Shown: one piece after another, positions 1 to 50,518 of the stretch
How the letters are laid out: every line of letters starts with the position of its first letter
Position numbering within the stretch: the first letter of the stretch is position 1
NCBI GenBank assembly: GCA_948473335.1
Contig: CAOKXF010000001.1
Location: 137,379-201,378, forward strand
Direction of reading: 5' to 3'
Origin: an uncultured Clostridium sp.
GTDB taxonomy: Bacteria; Bacillota; Clostridia; TANB77; CAG-508
DNA: 64,000 nt
Notes under the pieces: model-generated
Told to the model about the DNA's origin: nothing
The model's database searches: none
What the model saw: only the letters and a program-made list of their open reading frames with translations
Program-made: the position numbers and the translations under genes

Positions 1-1164
1 CAATTAGCTAATATTGTAGCACAAAGAATGAACAAAAAATTTGACATATTATTCATAGATTTAGAAGCACAATATAGACATACAATAAAGCATATAGAAG
101 AGCTAAAGGAATTATCACAAATAAGAGAATTTTATCATATTGCTTTACCAATAGCATTAAGAAATGCAGTATCAGTATTACAGCCTAAATGGATATGTTG
201 GGAAGAAGAAAGTAAGCACTTATGGGTAAGAGATATGCCAAAAGACAGTATAAATATAAAGAACTGTCCATTTGAATGGTTTAAAAAAGGAGAAGAATTT
301 GAAGAATTTACTGTACAATTTGCAGATTGGTATCAAAAAAAATATAAAGGAAGAGTAGCATGTGGAGTAGGAATTAGAACAGATGAAAGTCTAAATAGAT
401 TTAGAACTATAGCATTTAAGGGAAGAAAAGAAACTTATCAAGGATATAACTGGACAACAAAAGTAAAATTAAATGAAAGACACATTAATGTATATAATTT
501 TTATCCAATATATGATTGGGCAGCAGAAGATATATGGGGAGCAGTAAGTAAATTTAGTTTCAAATATAATTATACATATGAGTTAATGTATAAAAATGGA
601 ATAAGCATATATGAACAAAGACTCTGCCAACCATATGGAGATGACCAAAGGAATGGACTAGATCAATTTAAAGCATTGGAATATGACACATGGAGTAAAA
701 TATTAAATAGAGTAAATGGAGTTAATTTTGGAAATATTTATTGTAAAACAACAGCATTAGGAAATATAAAATCATGCAAACCAGATTTTATGACTTGGCA
801 AGAATATACAGTATTTTTATTAGAAAGTATAGGTATTTATAATAGAGATTTAATGTTACATTATTATAGAAAAATAAAGAAATTTATGGTGTGGTATAGT
901 TGCAAATATGGAACAGAAATAAAAGATATTCCAGATATAGCAGAATGTAGATTAGAAACACAGAAAAAAGCAATATCATGGAGAAGAATAGCAAGAGCAA
1001 TCGAAAAGAACGATTTCTATCTAAGAAGATTATCATTTGCACAAACAAAAAATGATGATAAAGAATTAATGGAATTAATACATAAATGGGACAACTTATT
1101 AAATAAAACAACAAAGACAGATGATAAAGTTTTACAAAAAATAATTGAAGAAAAATGTGTATAG
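1..1164 (+). CDS. IbrA-like PAPS-reductase-fold protein (PP-loop ATP pyrophosphatase family with C-terminal DUF3440-like region). The 5' end is truncated by the window edge
   Basis: The frame is open from nt 1 (QLANIVAQR-MNKK...) with no stop, so the Met at 28 is internal. The motif ILFIDLEAQY resembles the 'vvFvDTG.eFPET' region that follows the SGGKDS PP-loop in PAPS reductase/DndC-like enzymes, and that PP-loop would lie upstream of the window. A ParB-like partner gene follows, as in ibrA/ibrB pairs. Confidence 0.5.
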   Translation, partial: QLANIVAQRMNKKFDILFIDLEAQYRHTIKHIEELKELSQIREFYHIALPIALRNAVSVLQPKWICWEEESKHLWVRDMPKDSINIKNCPFEWFKKGEEFEEFTVQFADWYQKKYKGRVACGVGIRTDESLNRFRTIAFKGRKETYQGYNWTTKVKLNERHINVYNFYPIYDWAAEDIWGAVSKFSFKYNYTYELMYKNGISIYEQRLCQPYGDDQRNGLDQFKALEYDTWSKILNRVNGVNFGNIYCKTTALGNIKSCKPDFMTWQEYTVFLLESIGIYNRDLMLHYYRKIKKFMVWYSCKYGTEIKDIPDIAECRLETQKKAISWRRIARAIEKNDFYLRRLSFAQTKNDDKELMELIHKWDNLLNKTTKTDDKVLQKIIEEKCV

Positions 1165-1175
1165 GAGGATAAAAA

Positions 1176-1568
1176 ATGATAGTAAAAATGATAAATAAAG
1201 ATGAAAAATTTTATCAATATATGGGGAAGTTTTTTGGATCAAGGTTAGTAGAAAAACAAACCAATGATAGAATATATGATGATAATGATAAGGAATGGTA
1301 TATAAATCTAGAAGAAGAGAGAGTGGTTGCATTTGTATCTGTTAGCCAACATAAAATAAAAAATATATATGCAACAAAGGAAAAATATTTAGAAGAAGTA
1401 TTAAATGAAGTAAAAGATGATAGCAATCTTACATATAGTGTTGTAACAAAAAACTATGAAGAAGTATATGAAAGATGTGGATTTAAAATACATAAAGATG
1501 ACATTTATAGAAATTTTGTTACTATATATATGGAAAAAGATAATGAAACAGAACTAGTAAAAAAATAA
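1176..1568 (+). CDS. Small hypothetical protein (130 aa) sitting between the IbrA-like and IbrB-like genes, possibly a GNAT-like fold
   Basis: Strong SD AGGAGGA lies 7 nt upstream of ATG. The gene is tightly packed with its flanking genes (11-nt and 19-nt gaps). The C-terminal YERCGFKI resembles motif B of acetyltransferases, but this is weak. No confident family assignment. Confidence 0.4.
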   Translation: MIVKMINKDEKFYQYMGKFFGSRLVEKQTNDRIYDDNDKEWYINLEEERVVAFVSVSQHKIKNIYATKEKYLEEVLNEVKDDSNLTYSVVTKNYEEVYERCGFKIHKDDIYRNFVTIYMEKDNETELVKK

Positions 1569-1587
1569 GGAAGGAATAAATGTAGAA

Positions 1588-2172
1588 ATGAACGAAATAG
1601 AATTTCCAGTATTAAATGTAAAAATGGTAGATATAGATAAAGTAATAGCAAATGATTATAATCCAAATAAAGTAGCACCACCAGAAATGCAATTATTAAG
1701 ACATTCAATAGAAGAAGATGGATATACACAACCAATTGTAACATATTATGATAAAAAAAGGGATATCTATATAGTAGTGGATGGTTTCCATCGTTATAGG
1801 TGTGCTAAAGAATATTTCCATCTAAAACAAATTCCTATAGTAACGATAGATAAGGATTTAGAAAACCGCATGGCAAGTACAATAAGACATAACAGAGCAA
1901 GAGGAACACATCAAATTATAGATATGTCGAATATAGTTATAACACTTACGCAAAATGGGTGGACAGAAGCAAATATATCAAAACATTTGGGAATGGAATT
2001 AGATGAAGTAATTAGATTAAAGCAGATAACAGGTTTGAAAGAAGTATTTTCAAACCATACATTTAGTAAATCTTGGGAAGAATTTGAAGATAATAATATT
2101 ATACAAAAGATTCATAAAGAATTATTAAATTCAAAAGAAGTAAAAGAAAACAAAAATGATGAGAAATCTTAA
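1588..2172 (+). CDS. ParB-like nuclease (ParB/Srx fold) domain protein, IbrB-like
   Basis: N-terminal DIDKVIANDYNPNKV...IVVDGFHRYRCAK and HNRARGTH motifs are typical of the ParB/sulfiredoxin fold. SD aaggaagga is present. The gene is co-oriented with and adjacent to the PAPS-reductase-like gene. Confidence 0.65.
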   Translation: MNEIEFPVLNVKMVDIDKVIANDYNPNKVAPPEMQLLRHSIEEDGYTQPIVTYYDKKRDIYIVVDGFHRYRCAKEYFHLKQIPIVTIDKDLENRMASTIRHNRARGTHQIIDMSNIVITLTQNGWTEANISKHLGMELDEVIRLKQITGLKEVFSNHTFSKSWEEFEDNNIIQKIHKELLNSKEVKENKNDEKS

Positions 2173-3760: not shown

Positions 3761-4411
3761 TTAATTATTATTAATAGTAGAGAAATAAGTGCAAAATTTA
3801 TTAATAGGACAAGAAGAACAGTTAGGTTTTCTTGCAATACAAGTATTTCTACCATGCCAAACAAATAAATGATTAACATCTTTCAAATCATCTTTATCAA
3901 AAATATTCAACAAATCCTGTTCAATTTTTTCAGGAAGTTGTTCAGAAGAAAGACCAATTAAATTAGAAATTCTTTTAGCGTGAGTATCAACAGCGATACC
4001 TTGAGCCATACCAAAAGCCTCAAGCATAACAACATTTGCACTTTTTCTACCAACACCAGGAAGAGACATAAGTTCATCCATAGTATTAGGTACAACACCA
4101 TTAAATCTATGTAAAACCTCATTAGCACAAGCCTTTATATTAGCAGCTTTATTTTTATAAAAACCACAAGAATGAATTAAAGATTCAAGTTCTTTAATAT
4201 CAATATTAGCAAACTCCTCAATAGATTTACATCTTTGAAAAAGAGAAGGAGTAACCTTATTAACCCTCTCATCAGTGCACTGAGCAGAAAGCATAACAGC
4301 GACTACCATTTGAAAAGGAGTACCAAAATCTAAACTACATGTTACATCTGGATAAGTTTTTCTTAATATATCAATAAATTCTTTTGCTTGTTTTTTAGTC
4401 ATTTTTTTCAT
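3761..4411 (-). CDS. nth: Endonuclease III (DNA-(apurinic or apyrimidinic site) lyase)
   Basis: HhH-GPD motif LPGVGRKSANVV and the C-terminal 4Fe-4S cluster CxxxxxxCxxCxxxxxC (CIARKPNCSSCPINKFC) are present. A GGTGA SD precedes the start. Confidence 0.85.
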   Translation of the reverse strand: MKKMTKKQAKEFIDILRKTYPDVTCSLDFGTPFQMVVAVMLSAQCTDERVNKVTPSLFQRCKSIEEFANIDIKELESLIHSCGFYKNKAANIKACANEVLHRFNGVVPNTMDELMSLPGVGRKSANVVMLEAFGMAQGIAVDTHAKRISNLIGLSSEQLPEKIEQDLLNIFDKDDLKDVNHLFVWHGRNTCIARKPNCSSCPINKFCTYFSTINNN

Positions 4412-4450
4412 TTTTTATCACCATAATTATTATACAAAATAAATGTGAAA

Positions 4451-4572
4451 TGTGTCAATGGGGACGTTCTTTGTGACACACTTTTCTACTTAAACGTAGT
4501 CAAATCAAGGGAAAATAGGAAATAAGCTAAAAAATAAAAAAGTGTGTCACAAAGAACGTCCCCATTGACACA
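4451..4572. repeat. Perfect 31-bp inverted repeat (arms 4451-4481 and 4542-4572, 60-nt spacer) in the divergent nth/hrcA promoter region
   Basis: Arm 1 tgtgtcaatggggacgttctttgtgacacac is exactly the reverse complement of arm 2. Each arm carries a TTGACA -35-like hexamer oriented outward. Confidence 0.8.
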
Positions 4573-4591
4573 AATTTTTTAGCAAAAGGTA

Positions 4592-4654
4592 TTGACAAGT
4601 GCTAAAAAAGGGTATAATATATATGCGTTAGCAGTCAACAACAAAGAGTGCTAA
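4592..4654 (+). promoter_or_regulatory. sigma-A-type promoter (TTGACA 4592-4597, TATAAT 4613-4618) plus CIRCE operator (TTAGCAGTC-N9-GAGTGCTAA, 4628-4654) of the hrcA-grpE-dnaK-dnaJ operon
   Basis: Near-consensus CIRCE inverted repeat with a 9-nt spacer lies directly upstream of hrcA, the classical HrcA operator arrangement. Confidence 0.8.
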
Positions 4655-4683
4655 AGAAAAAATCCTAGAAAGGAGCTCTAAAA

Positions 4684-5688
4684 TTGCTAGAAGAAAGAAA
4701 AAAACAAATATTACAAGCAATTATAGAAGAATATATAAATACAGCAGAACCAGTTAGTTCAAATTTATTAGTTGAAGGATATGGATTAGAGTTTAGTAGT
4801 GCAACAATAAGAAATGAAATGGCAGAATTGGAGAAAATGGGATATTTAGAGAAAACACATACATCAAGTGGAAGAGTGCCTTCAGAAAAAGGTTATAGAT
4901 TTTATGTTGATGAATTACTTAAAGACGATAATATTAGTATAGAGGAAATAAAATATATAAGCGATAAGCTGGAAACTAAAGTAAATGAGATAGAAGATTT
5001 AACTCAAATTACAGCAAATACAATATCTGAAATAACCCATTATACAACAGTATCCATAGGACCTCAGGCGAAAGAGCAAAATATTGAAGAAATTAAATTT
5101 ATATTGTTAGGGACCAAAATGTTAATGGCTATTATATTGACTGATAATGGGCTGATTAAAGAAACAATAATAAAATTTGATGAAGATATTAATGATAAAC
5201 AAGTTGAAACACTTAATTATATGTTCAATAATAAACTAAAGGGAAAACCATTAAGTGAAATAAGTGGAAATTTGGAAGATTATTTATATGAGGAAATGTC
5301 ATATAGTGTAAAAGTTATAAAACCAATTATAGATCAAATTAAAAAAGTTATACAGAAAGAGACTATACATTTAGAAGGGCAGAACAAAGCATTTGAATTG
5401 CCAGAGTTTAATAGTTTGGAAATAGCAAAAAATTTTATGAATGTTTTAGATACTAAAGATTTGATGACAGATATGTTAAATACAGGTTTTGCTCAAGATA
5501 TAAATGTATACATAGGTGAAGAAAATGAAAAAGAAGAATTAAAAGATTTTAGTATTGTAACTTTTAAACATAAAGTAGGAAACAAAGATTTAGGTACTAT
5601 TGGTATAATAGGACCCAAGAGAATGAATTATTCTAAAGTTATTTCAGTTATGAAGTATATCAGCAAAAAACTAAATGAAAACAAATAA
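4684..5688 (+). CDS. hrcA: Heat-inducible transcription repressor HrcA
   Basis: N-terminal wHTH region QILQAIIEEYINTAEPVSS and overall HrcA architecture. TTG start with an AGGAG SD. CIRCE is upstream and grpE-dnaK-dnaJ are downstream. Confidence 0.9.
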   Translation: MLEERKKQILQAIIEEYINTAEPVSSNLLVEGYGLEFSSATIRNEMAELEKMGYLEKTHTSSGRVPSEKGYRFYVDELLKDDNISIEEIKYISDKLETKVNEIEDLTQITANTISEITHYTTVSIGPQAKEQNIEEIKFILLGTKMLMAIILTDNGLIKETIIKFDEDINDKQVETLNYMFNNKLKGKPLSEISGNLEDYLYEEMSYSVKVIKPIIDQIKKVIQKETIHLEGQNKAFELPEFNSLEIAKNFMNVLDTKDLMTDMLNTGFAQDINVYIGEENEKEELKDFSIVTFKHKVGNKDLGTIGIIGPKRMNYSKVISVMKYISKKLNENK

Positions 5689-5766: not shown

Positions 5767-6252
5767 ATGTCAGACGAGAATCAAACAAATCAAGAAATTA
5801 AAAATGAAAAACAGGATGAACTATTAAAAATACAAGAGGAATTTGATGAATTAACAGATAGATATAAAAGAGTAATGGCTGAATTTGAAAACCATAAGAA
5901 AAGGTCACAAAAAGAGAGAGAAATGTTATACAATATGGTACTATCAGATATAGTAGGAAGCATATTACCAGTTGTTGATAATTTGGAAAATGCAGTTAAA
6001 GCTGAGACAGAAGATGCAAATTATAAACAAGGTGTTGAAATGGTTTTAAAGCAATTTAAGGAAGTCTTAAGTCTTAAAGGAGTAGAAGAAATAAAGACAG
6101 TAGGTGAGACATTTGACCCTAGTTTACATGAAGCAGTAAGTAGTGTACAAGATGATACGAAAAAATCACAAGAGATAGTACAAGAATATAGAAAAGGATA
6201 TAAAATTGGAAGTAAGGTAATACGTCATTCAATGGTTGTGGTAGCAAATTAA
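5767..6252 (+). CDS. grpE: Nucleotide exchange factor GrpE
   Basis: Coiled-coil N-terminus and C-terminal GrpE signature (DPSLHEAV...GYKIGSKVIRHSMV). Position in the operon. Confidence 0.9.
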   Translation: MSDENQTNQEIKNEKQDELLKIQEEFDELTDRYKRVMAEFENHKKRSQKEREMLYNMVLSDIVGSILPVVDNLENAVKAETEDANYKQGVEMVLKQFKEVLSLKGVEEIKTVGETFDPSLHEAVSSVQDDTKKSQEIVQEYRKGYKIGSKVIRHSMVVVAN

Positions 6253-6403
6253 GTTAGCTGTAGGAATCTATGATTTCGTACAGATAACTTATGGAAAAAT
6301 GAGAAGCATTTTTCCATACATTATTCAATGAAGCTAACTGTAGAAATCCATAATTTCACACAGAAAACTTATAGAAAAATGAGAAGCATTTTTCCATACA
6401 TTA
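6253..6403. repeat. Tandem duplication (2 copies, ~79-bp unit, ~85% identical) of a hairpin-containing unit in the grpE-dnaK intergenic region
   Basis: Unit A covers 6253-6323 and unit B covers 6332-6403. Both end with cttatRgaaaaatgagaagcatttttccatacatta, a 10-11 bp stem with an agaag loop. Confidence 0.75.
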
Positions 6404-48720: not shown

Positions 48721-48886
48721 GTTAACAAATACATTTTAAGAATATATTGTATTAAAAGATATGATTTTCAATAGTGTGTATAATCATTTCTTAAAAATTG
48801 ACTATAATTAAAAAATATAGCAAAAAAGCGGACTTTAAATTATCAAATGTCCGTTTTTGAGGTTTATAAATGGAGGAATTGAAAAA

Positions 48887-49483
48887 ATGAATCTACCAAA
48901 TAAATTAACAATGTTTAGAATAATATTAGTACCAATAATGGTTATAATACCATTTTTAAACACACAAGGAACGCTTTTTAATATACCATATGAATATATA
49001 ATAATAAATATAATTTTTATAATAGCATCAATAACAGATCAATTAGATGGTCATATAGCACGTTCAAAAAATCAGATAACAACATTTGGGAAATTTGCAG
49101 ATCCCTTAGCTGATAAAATATTGGTATTAGCAGCTATGATGATACTAGTAGAATATAATAAATTGCCAGCTTGGATTCCTATATTAATATTAGCTAGAGA
49201 ATTTATTGTATCAGGATATAGACTAGTGGCAGTAGAGCAAGGTGGAAAAGTAATTGCCGCTTCTATCTGGGGTAAATTAAAAACAGTTACTCAAATGATA
49301 GCTATAATAATAGCATTTATCGATATTAATGCTTTTGGAGCTTGCTTTTCTGGAGAATTAACAGGATTACAACTTATTATTAATATTGCGCAAACATTAA
49401 TGATGATTATATGTGTAATTGCTACTGTTTTTTCTGGTTATGATTATTTAAAGAGTGGAAAGGAATTATTTAAATTAAAGTAA
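48887..49483 (+). CDS. pgsA: CDP-diacylglycerol--glycerol-3-phosphate 3-phosphatidyltransferase
   Basis: CDP-alcohol phosphatidyltransferase motif DQLDGHIAR...GKFADPLADKIL. Start set at MNLPNK after a GGAGGA SD. Confidence 0.85.
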   Translation: MNLPNKLTMFRIILVPIMVIIPFLNTQGTLFNIPYEYIIINIIFIIASITDQLDGHIARSKNQITTFGKFADPLADKILVLAAMMILVEYNKLPAWIPILILAREFIVSGYRLVAVEQGGKVIAASIWGKLKTVTQMIAIIIAFIDINAFGACFSGELTGLQLIINIAQTLMMIICVIATVFSGYDYLKSGKELFKLK

Positions 49484-49510: not shown

Positions 49511-49569
49511 AAAATTCAACTTTTATCAAAAAATGTATTTACTACATTTTTTGATAAAAGTTGAATTTT
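49511..49569. terminator. Perfect 27-bp-arm palindrome (5-nt loop), a bidirectional terminator between the convergent pgsA and sigK genes
   Basis: aaaattcaacttttatcaaaaaatgta (49511-49537) is exactly the reverse complement of 49543-49569. A/T runs flank it on both strands. Confidence 0.75.
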
Positions 49570-49585
49570 TGTTATGATTATATAA

Positions 49586-50287
49586 TTATTCTTTTATTTC
49601 TTTTGCTAATTTTCCAATAGCTTTAGTCTCAATTCTAGAAACATAGGAACGAGAAATACCAATCATATCCGCAATTTCATTTTGAGTCTTTGGTTTATGA
49701 CCATAGAGTCCAAAACGTAATTCTATAATAGTTCTTTCTCTATCTTTAAGAACAGTCTTAATTTTTTCATATAATTTCTTAGTTTTCATCTTCAAATCAA
49801 TAACATCCTCAACACTACGATCATCATTCTCAAGAACTTCTTGCAATGTAACAACATTATCATCTTTATCTTTTCCTATAGGTTCATTCAAAAAAACTTC
49901 TGCACCTAATTTTTTAGTTGCTCTAAGGTACATTAAAATTTCATTATCGATACATCTAGAAATATATGTAGAAAGTCTAGAACCTTTATCTATGTTAAAA
50001 CTATTTATTCCTTTAATTAATCCTATTGTTCCGATAGAAATCAAATCATCTTGATCTACATTTGAATTAGAATATTTCTTTGCAACATGAGCAACAAGTC
50101 TCAAATTTCTCTCAATTAATATATTCCTTGCTTCATCATCTCCAGCCTTTAGTTTTTCTAGATAAATTTTTTCATCTTCTGCATTTAAAGGTTCTAAAAA
50201 CAAGCTATTTCCTGAAATATATCCAACTGCAAATATAGCTGTTTTTATAAAGCCAAAAAAACCTGCTATGCTTAATGACGCTAACAT
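49586..50287 (-). CDS. sigK: Sporulation sigma factor pro-sigma-K. Pro-sigma-E is a less likely alternative
   Basis: Hydrophobic N-terminal pro-sequence. Region 2 RNLRLVAHVAKKY and region 4.2 GISRSYVSRIE match SigK better than SigE. The gene is stand-alone and not in a spoIIGA-sigE-sigG cluster. Start set at MLASLS after a GGAGGTG SD. Confidence 0.6.
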   Translation of the reverse strand: MLASLSIAGFFGFIKTAIFAVGYISGNSLFLEPLNAEDEKIYLEKLKAGDDEARNILIERNLRLVAHVAKKYSNSNVDQDDLISIGTIGLIKGINSFNIDKGSRLSTYISRCIDNEILMYLRATKKLGAEVFLNEPIGKDKDDNVVTLQEVLENDDRSVEDVIDLKMKTKKLYEKIKTVLKDRERTIIELRFGLYGHKPKTQNEIADMIGISRSYVSRIETKAIGKLAKEIKE

Positions 50288-50518
50288 AAATGCACCTCCA
50301 AATTCACACTCATACATTAATTATATGAATTGTAATTTTAAAAGTGCCTGACCCCAAAAATATTTTAGAATATTTATATTTTAGTAAAAATGAAATAGGT
50401 GAGAAACAGTAAAACGAGTAAAGATATAATATAAGAAAAAACTACCAAATATAAATATTGCAATTTAAAGTGAAATATAGTAAAATAGAAATGAAGAAAA
50501 AGAAAAGGGGAAATAACA

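What the first reader, a model, noticed from the sequence alone, without database searches (positions are those of the whole stretch)
4451..4572. Perfect 31-bp inverted repeat bracketing the divergent nth/hrcA promoters
Arms 4451-4481 and 4542-4572 are exact reverse complements and are separated by 60 nt. A 2 x 31-bp perfect repeat is far longer than a typical operator. Each arm carries an outward-facing TTGACA. On the minus strand one arm could supply the -35 for nth, with a gTATAAT 19 nt downstream; the other arm's TTGACA lies 22 nt upstream of the -35 of the CIRCE-controlled hrcA promoter. Its perfection suggests either recent origin (a MITE-like or foldback insertion) or selection, for example as a dimeric regulator site or a long RNA hairpin acting on both divergent transcripts. 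Its GC content is also higher than that of the surrounding sequence
Basis: seen in the sequence. Interest (0 to 1): 0.5.

Follow-up and report, generated by a model that had tools for sequence, protein, structure and literature searches.

The report
Hairpin-repeat doublet between nth and hrcA
The perfect 31-bp inverted repeat is real, but it is two head-to-head copies of a small hairpin repeat that is scattered between genes in this group of uncultured gut Clostridia; it is most likely a REP/MITE-like repeat element that now supplies part of the nth promoter, not a special regulator site for the heat-shock operon.

Summary
Arms 4451-4481 and 4542-4572 are exact reverse complements, far beyond chance, and present in at least 8 independent assemblies.

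Each arm is itself a ~33-nt hairpin: stem TGTGTCA/TGACACA around a loop with the core TGGGGACGT. This unit belongs to a dispersed family of intergenic hairpins in the clade (uncultured gut Clostridia, relatives of Clostridium sp. CAG:440). A covariance model built only from units of other species hits both arms (E about 1e-5) and nothing else in the 64 kb. Half of the family members are inverted doublets with non-conserved spacers, as here.

So the element is a REPIN/BIME-like, or MITE-like, foldback doublet. It is not recent: sister species (HrcA 95-97% identical) carry it at the same spot. One has a decayed right arm. The other has 8 arm differences, all mirrored in both arms, and an unrelated spacer.

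Its left end provides the -35 TTGACA of a 12/12 consensus nth promoter in all three lineages. The hrcA promoter and its two CIRCE operators lie wholly outside the repeat.

The mobilising enzyme and the copy number in the source genome are unknown. The family is not in Rfam. Interest is modest.

The parts
4451..4481 (+). Left arm, one hairpin repeat unit: stem TGTGTCA/TGACACA, loop ATGGGGACGTTCTTTG. The GGGGACG core is on the plus strand.
   Evidence: Exact inverted repeat. Model R1, built from other species' units, hits 4449-4482 plus strand at 29.5 bits, E 2.3e-5. The unit folds at -10.1 kcal/mol.
4482..4541 (.). 60-nt A/T-rich spacer between the two units. Its ends are the T-rich tails that follow each inward-facing hairpin.
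   Evidence: The spacer is not conserved: 33/64 identity to the L019 spacer, while the hrcA-side flank is 105/134. There are 3 strain polymorphisms in the spacer and 0 in the arms.
4542..4572 (-). Right arm, the same hairpin unit in inverted orientation. The GGGGACG core is on the minus strand.
   Evidence: Exact reverse complement of the left arm. R1 hits 4541-4574 minus strand at 27.8 bits, E 7e-5.
4429..4458 (-). Predicted nth promoter: -35 TTGACA (4458-4453, inside the outer end of the left arm), 18-nt spacer, -10 TATAAT (4434-4429).
   Evidence: 12/12 consensus match. The same 12/12 arrangement occurs in L019 and L031, with the -35 again in the element's outer end. L033, which lacks the element, has TTGATT-17-TATAAT at the same place.
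3761..4411 (-). nth (endonuclease III-like, HhH-GPD + HHH), transcribed away from the repeat.
   Evidence: ORF. Pfam families of the identical gene.
4579..4654 (+). hrcA promoter region, entirely outside the repeat: CIRCE-like operator 1 (4579-4605, spans the -35 at 4592-4597), -10 region (4613-4620), and CIRCE-like operator 2 (4628-4654).
   Evidence: This block is invariant in all strains and near-identical in sister species, whatever the state of the right arm.
4684..5688 (+). hrcA, first gene of hrcA-grpE-dnaK-dnaJ.

Best explanation
The repeat is a foldback doublet of a clade-specific extragenic hairpin repeat. Each arm is one ~33-nt unit: a 6-9-bp stem whose sequence varies between copies, closing a loop with the conserved core (W)TGGGGACG(T/G). 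In related genomes such units lie almost only between genes, often a few to a few tens of nt after a stop codon. Half of them occur as two inverted copies separated by a variable, non-conserved spacer. That is the architecture of REP doublets (REPINs/BIMEs) and of foldback MITEs.

Shown: the window carries one such doublet lodged between the divergent nth and hrcA promoters.

Inferred: it arrived or was re-seeded as a unit and is kept symmetric by copying or repair as a hairpin, not by a protein that needs two identical sites. The left outer end has been co-opted as the -35 hexamer of the nth promoter. The right arm has no role in hrcA control, which rests on the two CIRCE operators downstream. 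The doublet lies upstream of both transcription starts, so it acts, if at all, as DNA.

Not shown: the enzyme or process that spreads the family. A single-strand (HUH/Y1-type) mechanism is only an analogy.
For: (1) Each arm is a hairpin: RNAfold gives -10.1 kcal/mol for one unit.

(2) The word GGGGACG occurs 68 times in the window, L019 and the 80 loci of related species (L031-L110), against about 8 expected from base composition (my estimate). A stem of at least 7 bp flanks it at 53% of sites, against 2.7% of 20,500 random positions; at least 9 bp at 35% against 0.55%. Stem sequences differ between copies while pairing is kept: 95% of cells paired, and 8/8 pairs show changes on both sides.

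(3) Model R1, built from 12 units of other species only, hits both window arms (E 2.3e-5 and 7e-5) and nothing else in 64 kb. It finds 39 further units (E <= 0.01) in about 22 species.

(4) Of these 40 units, 37 are intergenic and 20 form 10 inverted doublets with start-to-start spacings of 33-140 nt. 58 of 66 GGGGACG words are intergenic, although only 15% of the sequence is.

(5) Units are present or absent at orthologous sites. Identical doublets occur at two loci of one genome (L094 4183/4225 and 13130/13172).

(6) Window and L019 arms differ at 8 positions, all mirrored in the other arm. The spacers are unrelated (33/64) while the flanks are conserved. The L019 loop variant GGGGACGTAGAT recurs at unrelated loci in L085. 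This points to replacement by another subfamily member.

(7) The nth promoter uses the element's end in three lineages.

(8) The REPIN definition (two inverted REPs, non-conserved spacer, hairpin, occasional co-option as terminator) comes from PMC3337134. Inverted-repeat elements that create promoters at their ends are described in PMC2649163.
Against: Only one doublet is seen in the 64 kb plus about 5 kb available from the source species. Multi-copy status is therefore shown for the clade, not for this genome.

No transposase of any kind was found next to units in 1.4 Mb of loci (a weak test). No target-site duplication flanks the window element.

The window doublet is the only one of ten that lies between divergent genes.

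The left arm is better conserved in L031 (2 of 31 differences) than the adjacent promoter spacer (5 of 39). This hints at a unit-level function not explained by a neutral repeat.

The units used for the covariation count were selected for having stems, so that count is partly circular. The enrichment over random positions is the unbiased test.
Confidence: 0.6

Rival explanations
1. It is a classical MITE: a deletion derivative of a DDE-type insertion sequence. The 31-bp arms are terminal inverted repeats bound by a transposase supplied in trans.
For: The architecture fits: terminal inverted repeats, a 122-bp size and no ORF. Presence or absence varies at orthologous sites. A single unit in L084 may be flanked by a TTTTAT duplication where L048 has one copy. 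Tandem duplications occur at the outer ends (L001, L019, L021).
Against: Half of the family members are single units, each self-folding. That is not how MITE ends behave. No direct repeat flanks 4451/4572. No element with these ends around an ORF was found in 1.4 Mb. The TTTTAT case lies in low-complexity A/T sequence.
Confidence: 0.15
2. It is a structured nucleic-acid element kept by selection. Two inward-facing terminator-like hairpins could act as an insulator between the divergent promoters, or a transcribed long hairpin could be an RNase III substrate or a small RNA.
For: Each unit folds into a 13-bp interrupted stem with a triloop, followed by a T-rich tail (CTTTTCTACTT; CTTTTTTATTTTTT). 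The inner helix uses G.U pairs and so exists on the GGGGACG strand only. Family units commonly sit 5-37 nt after stop codons. Orthologous grpE-dnaK spacers hold long-range doublets with compensatory arm changes inside an mRNA. The left unit is well conserved in L031.
Against: No gene reads into the spacer from either side, and both predicted promoters fire outward. The terminator scan finds nothing here. There is no Rfam family. The spacer is not conserved. One arm is lost or diverged in natural variants.
Confidence: 0.12
3. It is a pair of identical operator sites for a dimeric or looping transcription factor that co-regulates nth and hrcA.
For: The two identical 31-bp sites lie 91 bp apart and bracket the region between two promoters. 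In 38 of 80 related species a conserved direct repeat, TTCACAAA-N3-TTCACAAA, occupies the position just upstream of CIRCE-1, where the right arm ends in the window. So this spot can hold a protein site.
Against: Stems differ between family members within one genome while pairing is kept, so the constraint is on structure, not on a fixed operator sequence. Units are scattered after unrelated genes. The right arm is decayed in L031/L032 and the left arm in L005 without any change to either promoter. The CtsR consensus is at chance level and the arms do not match CIRCE.
Confidence: 0.08
4. It is an invertible DNA switch: the arms are recombinase sites and the 60-nt spacer flips.
For: Perfect inverted repeats flank a short segment between two promoters.
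Against: All eight assemblies that span the element show the same spacer orientation. No recombinase gene lies within +-10 kb. The spacer holds no promoter-like site. 60 nt is very short for synapsis (my own knowledge).
Confidence: 0.02

Closest known systems
REP doublets: REPINs of Pseudomonas and BIMEs of E. coli (PMC3337134, PMC3116915)
   Same: The unit is a short imperfect palindrome. Units are extragenic. Two units of the same type lie in inverted orientation around a variable, non-conserved spacer, and the whole folds into a long hairpin. Singlets occur as decayed doublets. Elements persist at orthologous positions. Some are co-opted, for example as terminators.
   Different: The conserved part here is the loop (GGGGACG), and the stem varies. 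In REPs the palindromic stem and a 5' tetranucleotide are conserved. No RAYT gene has been found. Copy number in the source genome is unknown and locally low. The host is a low-GC Firmicute lineage; according to PMC5581495, only Group 1 RAYTs, which are weakly REP-associated, are reported in Clostridia.
Correia repeat enclosed elements of Neisseria (PMC2649163)
   Same: Both are inverted-repeat elements of about 100-150 bp that sit between genes. Both can create a promoter at one or both ends. When transcribed, both form an RNase III-type hairpin.
   Different: There is no sequence relation. Correia ends are not themselves hairpins and carry a TA duplication and an IHF site (my own knowledge). 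Here only the nth-side end meets a -10 at the right distance.
CIRCE / HrcA operator
   Same: Both are inverted repeats in the hrcA upstream region.
   Different: The arms do not match TTAGCACTC-N9-GAGTGCTAA. The two CIRCE-like operators are separate, at 4579-4605 and 4628-4654.
Intrinsic (rho-independent) terminators
   Same: Family units are hairpins followed by T-rich tails. They are often placed just after stop codons.
   Different: The units have a conserved loop core, weak A/T-rich stems and large nominal loops. The window copy follows no gene. The ordinary terminator in this window (49511-49569) is a plain 27-bp A/T palindrome without the core.

Membership tests
REP / REPIN (RAYT-associated) | The unit is a short imperfect palindrome able to form a hairpin. 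| tested here: met
   A window unit folds at -10.1 kcal/mol. Stems of at least 7 bp flank 53% of GGGGACG sites against 2.7% of random positions. Pairing is kept through changes on both sides.
REP / REPIN (RAYT-associated) | Two units lie in inverted orientation with a variable, non-conserved spacer, forming one long hairpin. | tested here: met
   There are 10 doublets among 40 units. The window spacer is unrelated to that of L019.
REP / REPIN (RAYT-associated) | Units are extragenic and over-represented, with many copies per genome. | tested here: inconclusive
   At clade level this is met: 37/40 units are intergenic, with up to 8 GGGGACG units per 21-kb locus in L055. In the source species only one doublet is seen in about 69 kb. 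The metagenome scan returned nothing, but it also missed a JGI contig known to carry the repeat.
REP / REPIN (RAYT-associated) | A single-copy RAYT (Y1 HUH transposase) gene is flanked by the units. | tested here: inconclusive
   tblastn with an IS200 TnpA sequence recalled from memory found nothing in 1.4 Mb of loci. This is a weak test, and whole genomes were not searchable.
MITE (DDE transposon derivative) | Terminal inverted repeats, a small size and no ORF. | tested here: met
MITE (DDE transposon derivative) | A target-site duplication flanks the element. | tested here: not met
   No direct repeat flanks 4451/4572. The only candidate elsewhere, TTTTAT around a single unit in L084, lies in low-complexity sequence.
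MITE (DDE transposon derivative) | A parent IS with the same ends exists. | tested here: inconclusive
   No inverted unit pair encloses an ORF in the sampled loci. There are no matches in plasmid or phage records.
CIRCE (HrcA operator) | Match to TTAGCACTC-N9-GAGTGCTAA. | tested here: not met
   The pattern search finds only 4579-4605 and 4628-4654 in this spacer, not the arms.
CtsR operator | Direct heptad repeat RGTCAAA-NAN-RGTCAAA. | tested here: not met
   The best matches in the spacer have 3 mismatches. The window holds 22 such matches against 21.6 expected.
Invertible promoter switch | Both orientations of the enclosed segment are observed, and a recombinase gene lies nearby. | tested here: not met
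   Eight assemblies show one orientation. There is no recombinase within +-10 kb.
Intrinsic terminator | A G+C-rich stem, a 3-8-nt loop and a U tract, placed downstream of a gene on the same strand. | tested here: not met
   The terminator scan finds none in 4300-4750. Both neighbouring genes point away. RNAfold's alternative fold with G.U pairs is terminator-like, so the resemblance is kept as a description only.
Rfam RNA families | A match at or above the gathering score. | tested here: not met
   Only sub-threshold eukaryotic miRNA-hairpin matches were found. Nothing matched the units in 140 kb of unit-rich loci.

The most novel reading that the evidence does not exclude
The GGGGACG-loop hairpins are an undescribed, self-propagating REPIN-like replicator family of a small-genome, uncultured gut Clostridia clade. 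The loop, not the stem, would be the recognition element of a still unidentified single-strand-specific enzyme. The doublets would be kept symmetric by selection. The host would have recruited them repeatedly: as the nth -35 here, and as long-range mRNA hairpins in the grpE-dnaK and dnaK-dnaJ spacers of the heat-shock operon.
Probability: 0.25. Interest if true: 0.55.

Novelty: new member of a known kind. Interest (0 to 1): 0.3.

Why it matters
For annotation, this long perfect palindrome upstream of hrcA should not be read as an operator or a riboswitch-like element. It is a repeat element, and heat-shock control rests on the two CIRCE sites.

For biology, it is a clean natural example of a repeat element supplying a consensus -35 to a housekeeping DNA-repair gene. 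The family it belongs to is undescribed: it has no Rfam entry and I found no paper on it. It would extend REP/REPIN-type intragenomic replicators to an uncultured Firmicute lineage, with loop-based rather than stem-based conservation.

The orthologous series also offers a ready-made data set on how such doublets stay symmetric. It runs from the perfect doublet, through a doublet of another subfamily, to a single unit with a decayed partner.

Tried and rejected
(1) Rfam search of the spacer at E <= 10 and of the whole window at gathering score found only chance eukaryotic miRNA-precursor hits and one tRNA. Unit-rich loci gave nothing either.

(2) A genome-contig scan for GTCAATGGGNACNTTCTTNGTNACACAC found 0 hits. 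The source species is not among the GTDB representatives, and the nearest representative (L031) differs inside the pattern.

(3) A metagenome-contig scan for CAATGGGGACGTTCTTTNTGACAC found 0 hits. This is uninformative, because JGI contig L111, which carries the exact pattern, was not found either.

(4) The CtsR-box idea, based on AGTCAAATCAAGGGAAA in the spacer, is at chance level and not conserved.

(5) The invertible-switch idea was rejected: only one orientation is seen and there is no recombinase nearby.

(6) An assembly artefact was rejected. The Logan contigs L007, L008 and L010 break exactly at the right arm. That is what a 31-mer de Bruijn graph does at a 31-nt inverted repeat, and longer-k assemblies span it.

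(7) tblastn for an IS200/RAYT-like gene with a sequence recalled from memory found nothing.

(8) Target-site duplications could not be established. Orthologous filled and empty sites are mosaics of nested units.

(9) blastn against plasmid and phage records gave no meaningful match.

(10) A full-text search for the core word GGGGACG found nothing relevant.

(11) I considered that the window's left flank (TGACACA|TTTCACA on the minus strand) is a remnant of the TTCACAAA repeat seen in L046. I dropped this because L031, L019 and L005 lack it.

Full report
OBSERVATION. The window region 4451-4572 holds two exact 31-nt inverted arms (TGTGTCAATGGGGACGTTCTTTGTGACACAC and its reverse complement) separated by 60 nt. 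With two mismatches the complementarity runs to 41 nt. No other copy with up to 3 mismatches exists in the 64 kb, and no shuffle produces one. The region folds far better than shuffles: RNA -64.5 kcal/mol, z -12.8; DNA -40.6 kcal/mol, z -11.2.

The repeat lies between nth (3761-4411, minus strand) and hrcA (4684-5688, plus strand). hrcA is followed by grpE, dnaK and dnaJ. The same perfect repeat is present in independent ENA, JGI and Logan assemblies that encode an identical HrcA, so it is not an assembly artefact. Three Logan contigs stop exactly at the right arm, which is the expected behaviour of a k=31 graph at a 31-nt inverted repeat.

WHAT THE ARMS ARE. Each arm is itself a hairpin: stem TGTGTCA/TGACACA around the loop ATGGGGACGTTCTTTG. 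As RNA it folds at -10.1 kcal/mol, with an inner helix that uses G.U pairs and a T-rich tail.

To place the arms in context I fetched 80 hrcA loci (+-10 kb) from species representatives of the clade. These are uncultured gut 'Clostridia bacterium' MAGs and Clostridium sp. CAG:440, with HrcA 75-97% identical. Across the window, L019 and these 80 loci the word GGGGACG occurs 68 times. I estimate about 8 from base composition. It lies almost always in the loop of a hairpin whose stem differs from copy to copy; examples are GATGATTTT/AAAATCATC, GTTGCCAAA/TTTGGCAAC, ATGTCTCA/TGAGACAT and TGTCCCA/TGGGACA.

A flanking stem of at least 7 bp is found at 53% of these sites, against 2.7% of 20,500 random positions. 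A stem of at least 9 bp is found at 35% against 0.55%. On a constructed alignment of 24 distinct units, 95% of cells pair and all 8 pairs show changes on both sides. That count is partly circular, because the units were chosen for having stems. The enrichment over random positions is the unbiased test.

INDEPENDENT MEMBERSHIP TEST. I built covariance model R1 from 12 units of other species only (A7). It hits both window arms (29.5 and 27.8 bits; E 2.3e-5 and 7e-5). Nothing else in the window is significant; the next hit has E 0.43. In 1.27 Mb of related loci it finds 39 units at E <= 0.01, in about 22 species.

Of the 40 units including the window's, 37 are intergenic and 20 form ten inverted doublets with start-to-start spacings of 33-140 nt. 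The window doublet is the only one between divergent genes. 58 of 66 GGGGACG words are intergenic, although only 15% of the sequence is. A typical unit starts 5-37 nt after the stop codon of a same-strand gene. Gene calls in these scripts are crude longest-ORF calls.

Units are present or absent at orthologous sites. Identical doublets occur at two places in one genome, L094. Rfam has no family for them. There are no matches in plasmid or phage records.

HISTORY AT THIS LOCUS. In the species with 97% identical HrcA (L011-L018, L031, L032) the left unit is kept, with 2 differences in 31 nt and an improved 8-bp stem. The right arm has decayed.

In the species with 95% identical HrcA (L019-L021) a full doublet is present at the same place, but its arms differ from the window's at 8 positions. 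All 8 are mirrored in the other arm. The spacer is unrelated (33/64 identical) while the hrcA-side flank is conserved (105/134). The L019 loop variant GGGGACGTAGAT also occurs at unrelated loci in L085. The mirrored differences are therefore best read as replacement by, or an independent insertion of, another subfamily member. They are less likely to be stepwise compensatory change in place.

Species with 81-83% identity either keep nth upstream without the element (L033, L035) or have another neighbour. Within the source species, one strain (L005) has a diverged left arm, and one (L001) a 10-nt tandem duplication at the arm's outer end. L019 and L021 have one and two extra 11-nt outer copies. 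The element is thus old, turns over, and does not need both arms.

PROMOTERS. The minus-strand TTGACA at 4458-4453 lies 18 nt from TATAAT at 4434-4429, a 12/12 match. The same 12/12 promoter is found in L019 (17-nt spacer, using the extra outer copy) and in L031. L033, without the element, has TTGATT-17-TATAAT at the same position. I infer that the element's end now provides the nth -35.

On the other side, the right-arm TTGACA has no -10 at the proper distance in the window. The hrcA -35 (4592-4597), its -10 and two CIRCE-like operators (4579-4605 and 4628-4654) lie outside the repeat. They are invariant whether the right arm is intact or decayed. Both predicted promoters fire away from the repeat, so it lies in neither mRNA. 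This is inferred from sequence; no transcript data were available.

MECHANISM AND RIVALS. The best-supported reading (confidence 0.6) is a REPIN/BIME-like foldback doublet of a clade-specific hairpin repeat, with its left end co-opted as a promoter element. It shares four features with REPINs as defined in PMC3337134:
- a palindromic unit;
- an inverted doublet of same-type units;
- a non-conserved spacer;
- an extragenic location.

It resembles Correia elements in creating a promoter at an end (PMC2649163).

Membership in the REPIN family proper is not established. No RAYT gene was found, though the test was weak. The copy number in the source genome is unknown. The conserved part is the loop rather than the stem.

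The rivals are:
- a DDE-type MITE (0.15; no target duplication at the window, and singles are common);
- a selected structured element, such as an insulator or terminator pair or a transcribed hairpin (0.12; nothing reads into it, but the left unit is unusually well conserved in L031);
- a paired operator for a regulator (0.08; one arm is dispensable, stems covary, CtsR is at chance);
- an invertible switch (0.02; one orientation in eight assemblies and no recombinase nearby).

VERDICT. The family itself, and the conserved TTCACAAA direct repeat that occupies the same spot in other species, may merit separate follow-up.

Noticed in passing
window 4579-4605 and 4628-4654: The hrcA promoter carries two CIRCE-like inverted repeats, not one. 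TTAGCAAAAGGTATTGACAAGTGCTAA spans the -35, and TTAGCAGTCAACAACAAAGAGTGCTAA follows the -10. Both are conserved in nearly all 80 related species.
   Followed up: partly
L037 9878-9896, L046 3605-3623, L100 4643-4661 and 35 other loci; corresponds to about window 4555-4578: A direct repeat, TTCACAAA-N3-TTCACAAA (11-bp period, like sites of OmpR/PhoB-type response regulators), occurs exactly once per locus in 38 of 80 species. In the loci inspected it lies 4-5 nt upstream of CIRCE-1 of hrcA, and the other matches sit at the same distance from the hrcA start. It is missing in the window lineage, where the right arm's end (GACACAAA) lies one nt off that position. It may be an unrecognised activator site of the heat-shock operon.
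   Followed up: partly
window 6247-6403 (grpE-dnaK spacer): There is an 80-nt tandem duplication (2.0 copies, 87% identical). Each copy holds the hairpin ATGGAAAAATG-AGAAG-CATTTTTCCAT. Sister species L019 and L031 have one copy.
   Followed up: partly
grpE-dnaK spacers of L092 11534-11689, L053, L058, L066, L046, L050, L056, L085, L105: Orthologous long-range inverted doublets of GGGGACG-type units lie inside the hrcA-grpE-dnaK mRNA and end just before the dnaK ribosome-binding site. Arm changes between species are compensatory: GGGGACGGAGGAA/TTCCTCCGTCCCC; GGGGTCGGAGACAA/TTGTCTCCGACCCC; GGGACGGGGTCAAAAAACACC/GGTGTTTTTTGACCCCGTCCC. This may be an mRNA processing, stability or thermosensing structure.
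   Followed up: no
L004 1-95 (ENA ERZ14650997 contig end): In one assembly the sequence upstream of hrcA is unrelated up to a breakpoint inside the right unit's loop (...CAGGCAGACAACCAC|AACGTCCCCATTGACACA). The foreign part matches nothing else fetched. It could be a chimeric contig end or a rearrangement at the unit.
   Followed up: partly
window 49511-49569: This is a perfect 27-bp A/T-rich palindrome with a 5-nt loop, lying between convergent ORFs 48857-49483 (plus strand) and 49586-50317 (minus strand). It looks like an ordinary bidirectional terminator and lacks the GGGGACG core.
   Followed up: yes
L111 3103-7495 (upstream of the window's PdaC/DUF6512/nth genes; partly window 1-2172): The gene set here is an AAA_11/AAA_12 helicase with DUF2726, a PAPS_reduct + DUF3440 protein, a small ORF and a ParB_N protein. 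It looks like a defence or DNA-modification island rather than chromosome partitioning.
   Followed up: no
L094 4171-4310 and 13114-13222; L095 1431-1620: Units can form short tandem arrays (periods of 24-nt and 34-nt) arranged as inverted blocks. This suggests slippage at the repeats. The same tendency shows as 10-11-nt outer-end duplications in L001, L019 and L021.
   Followed up: no
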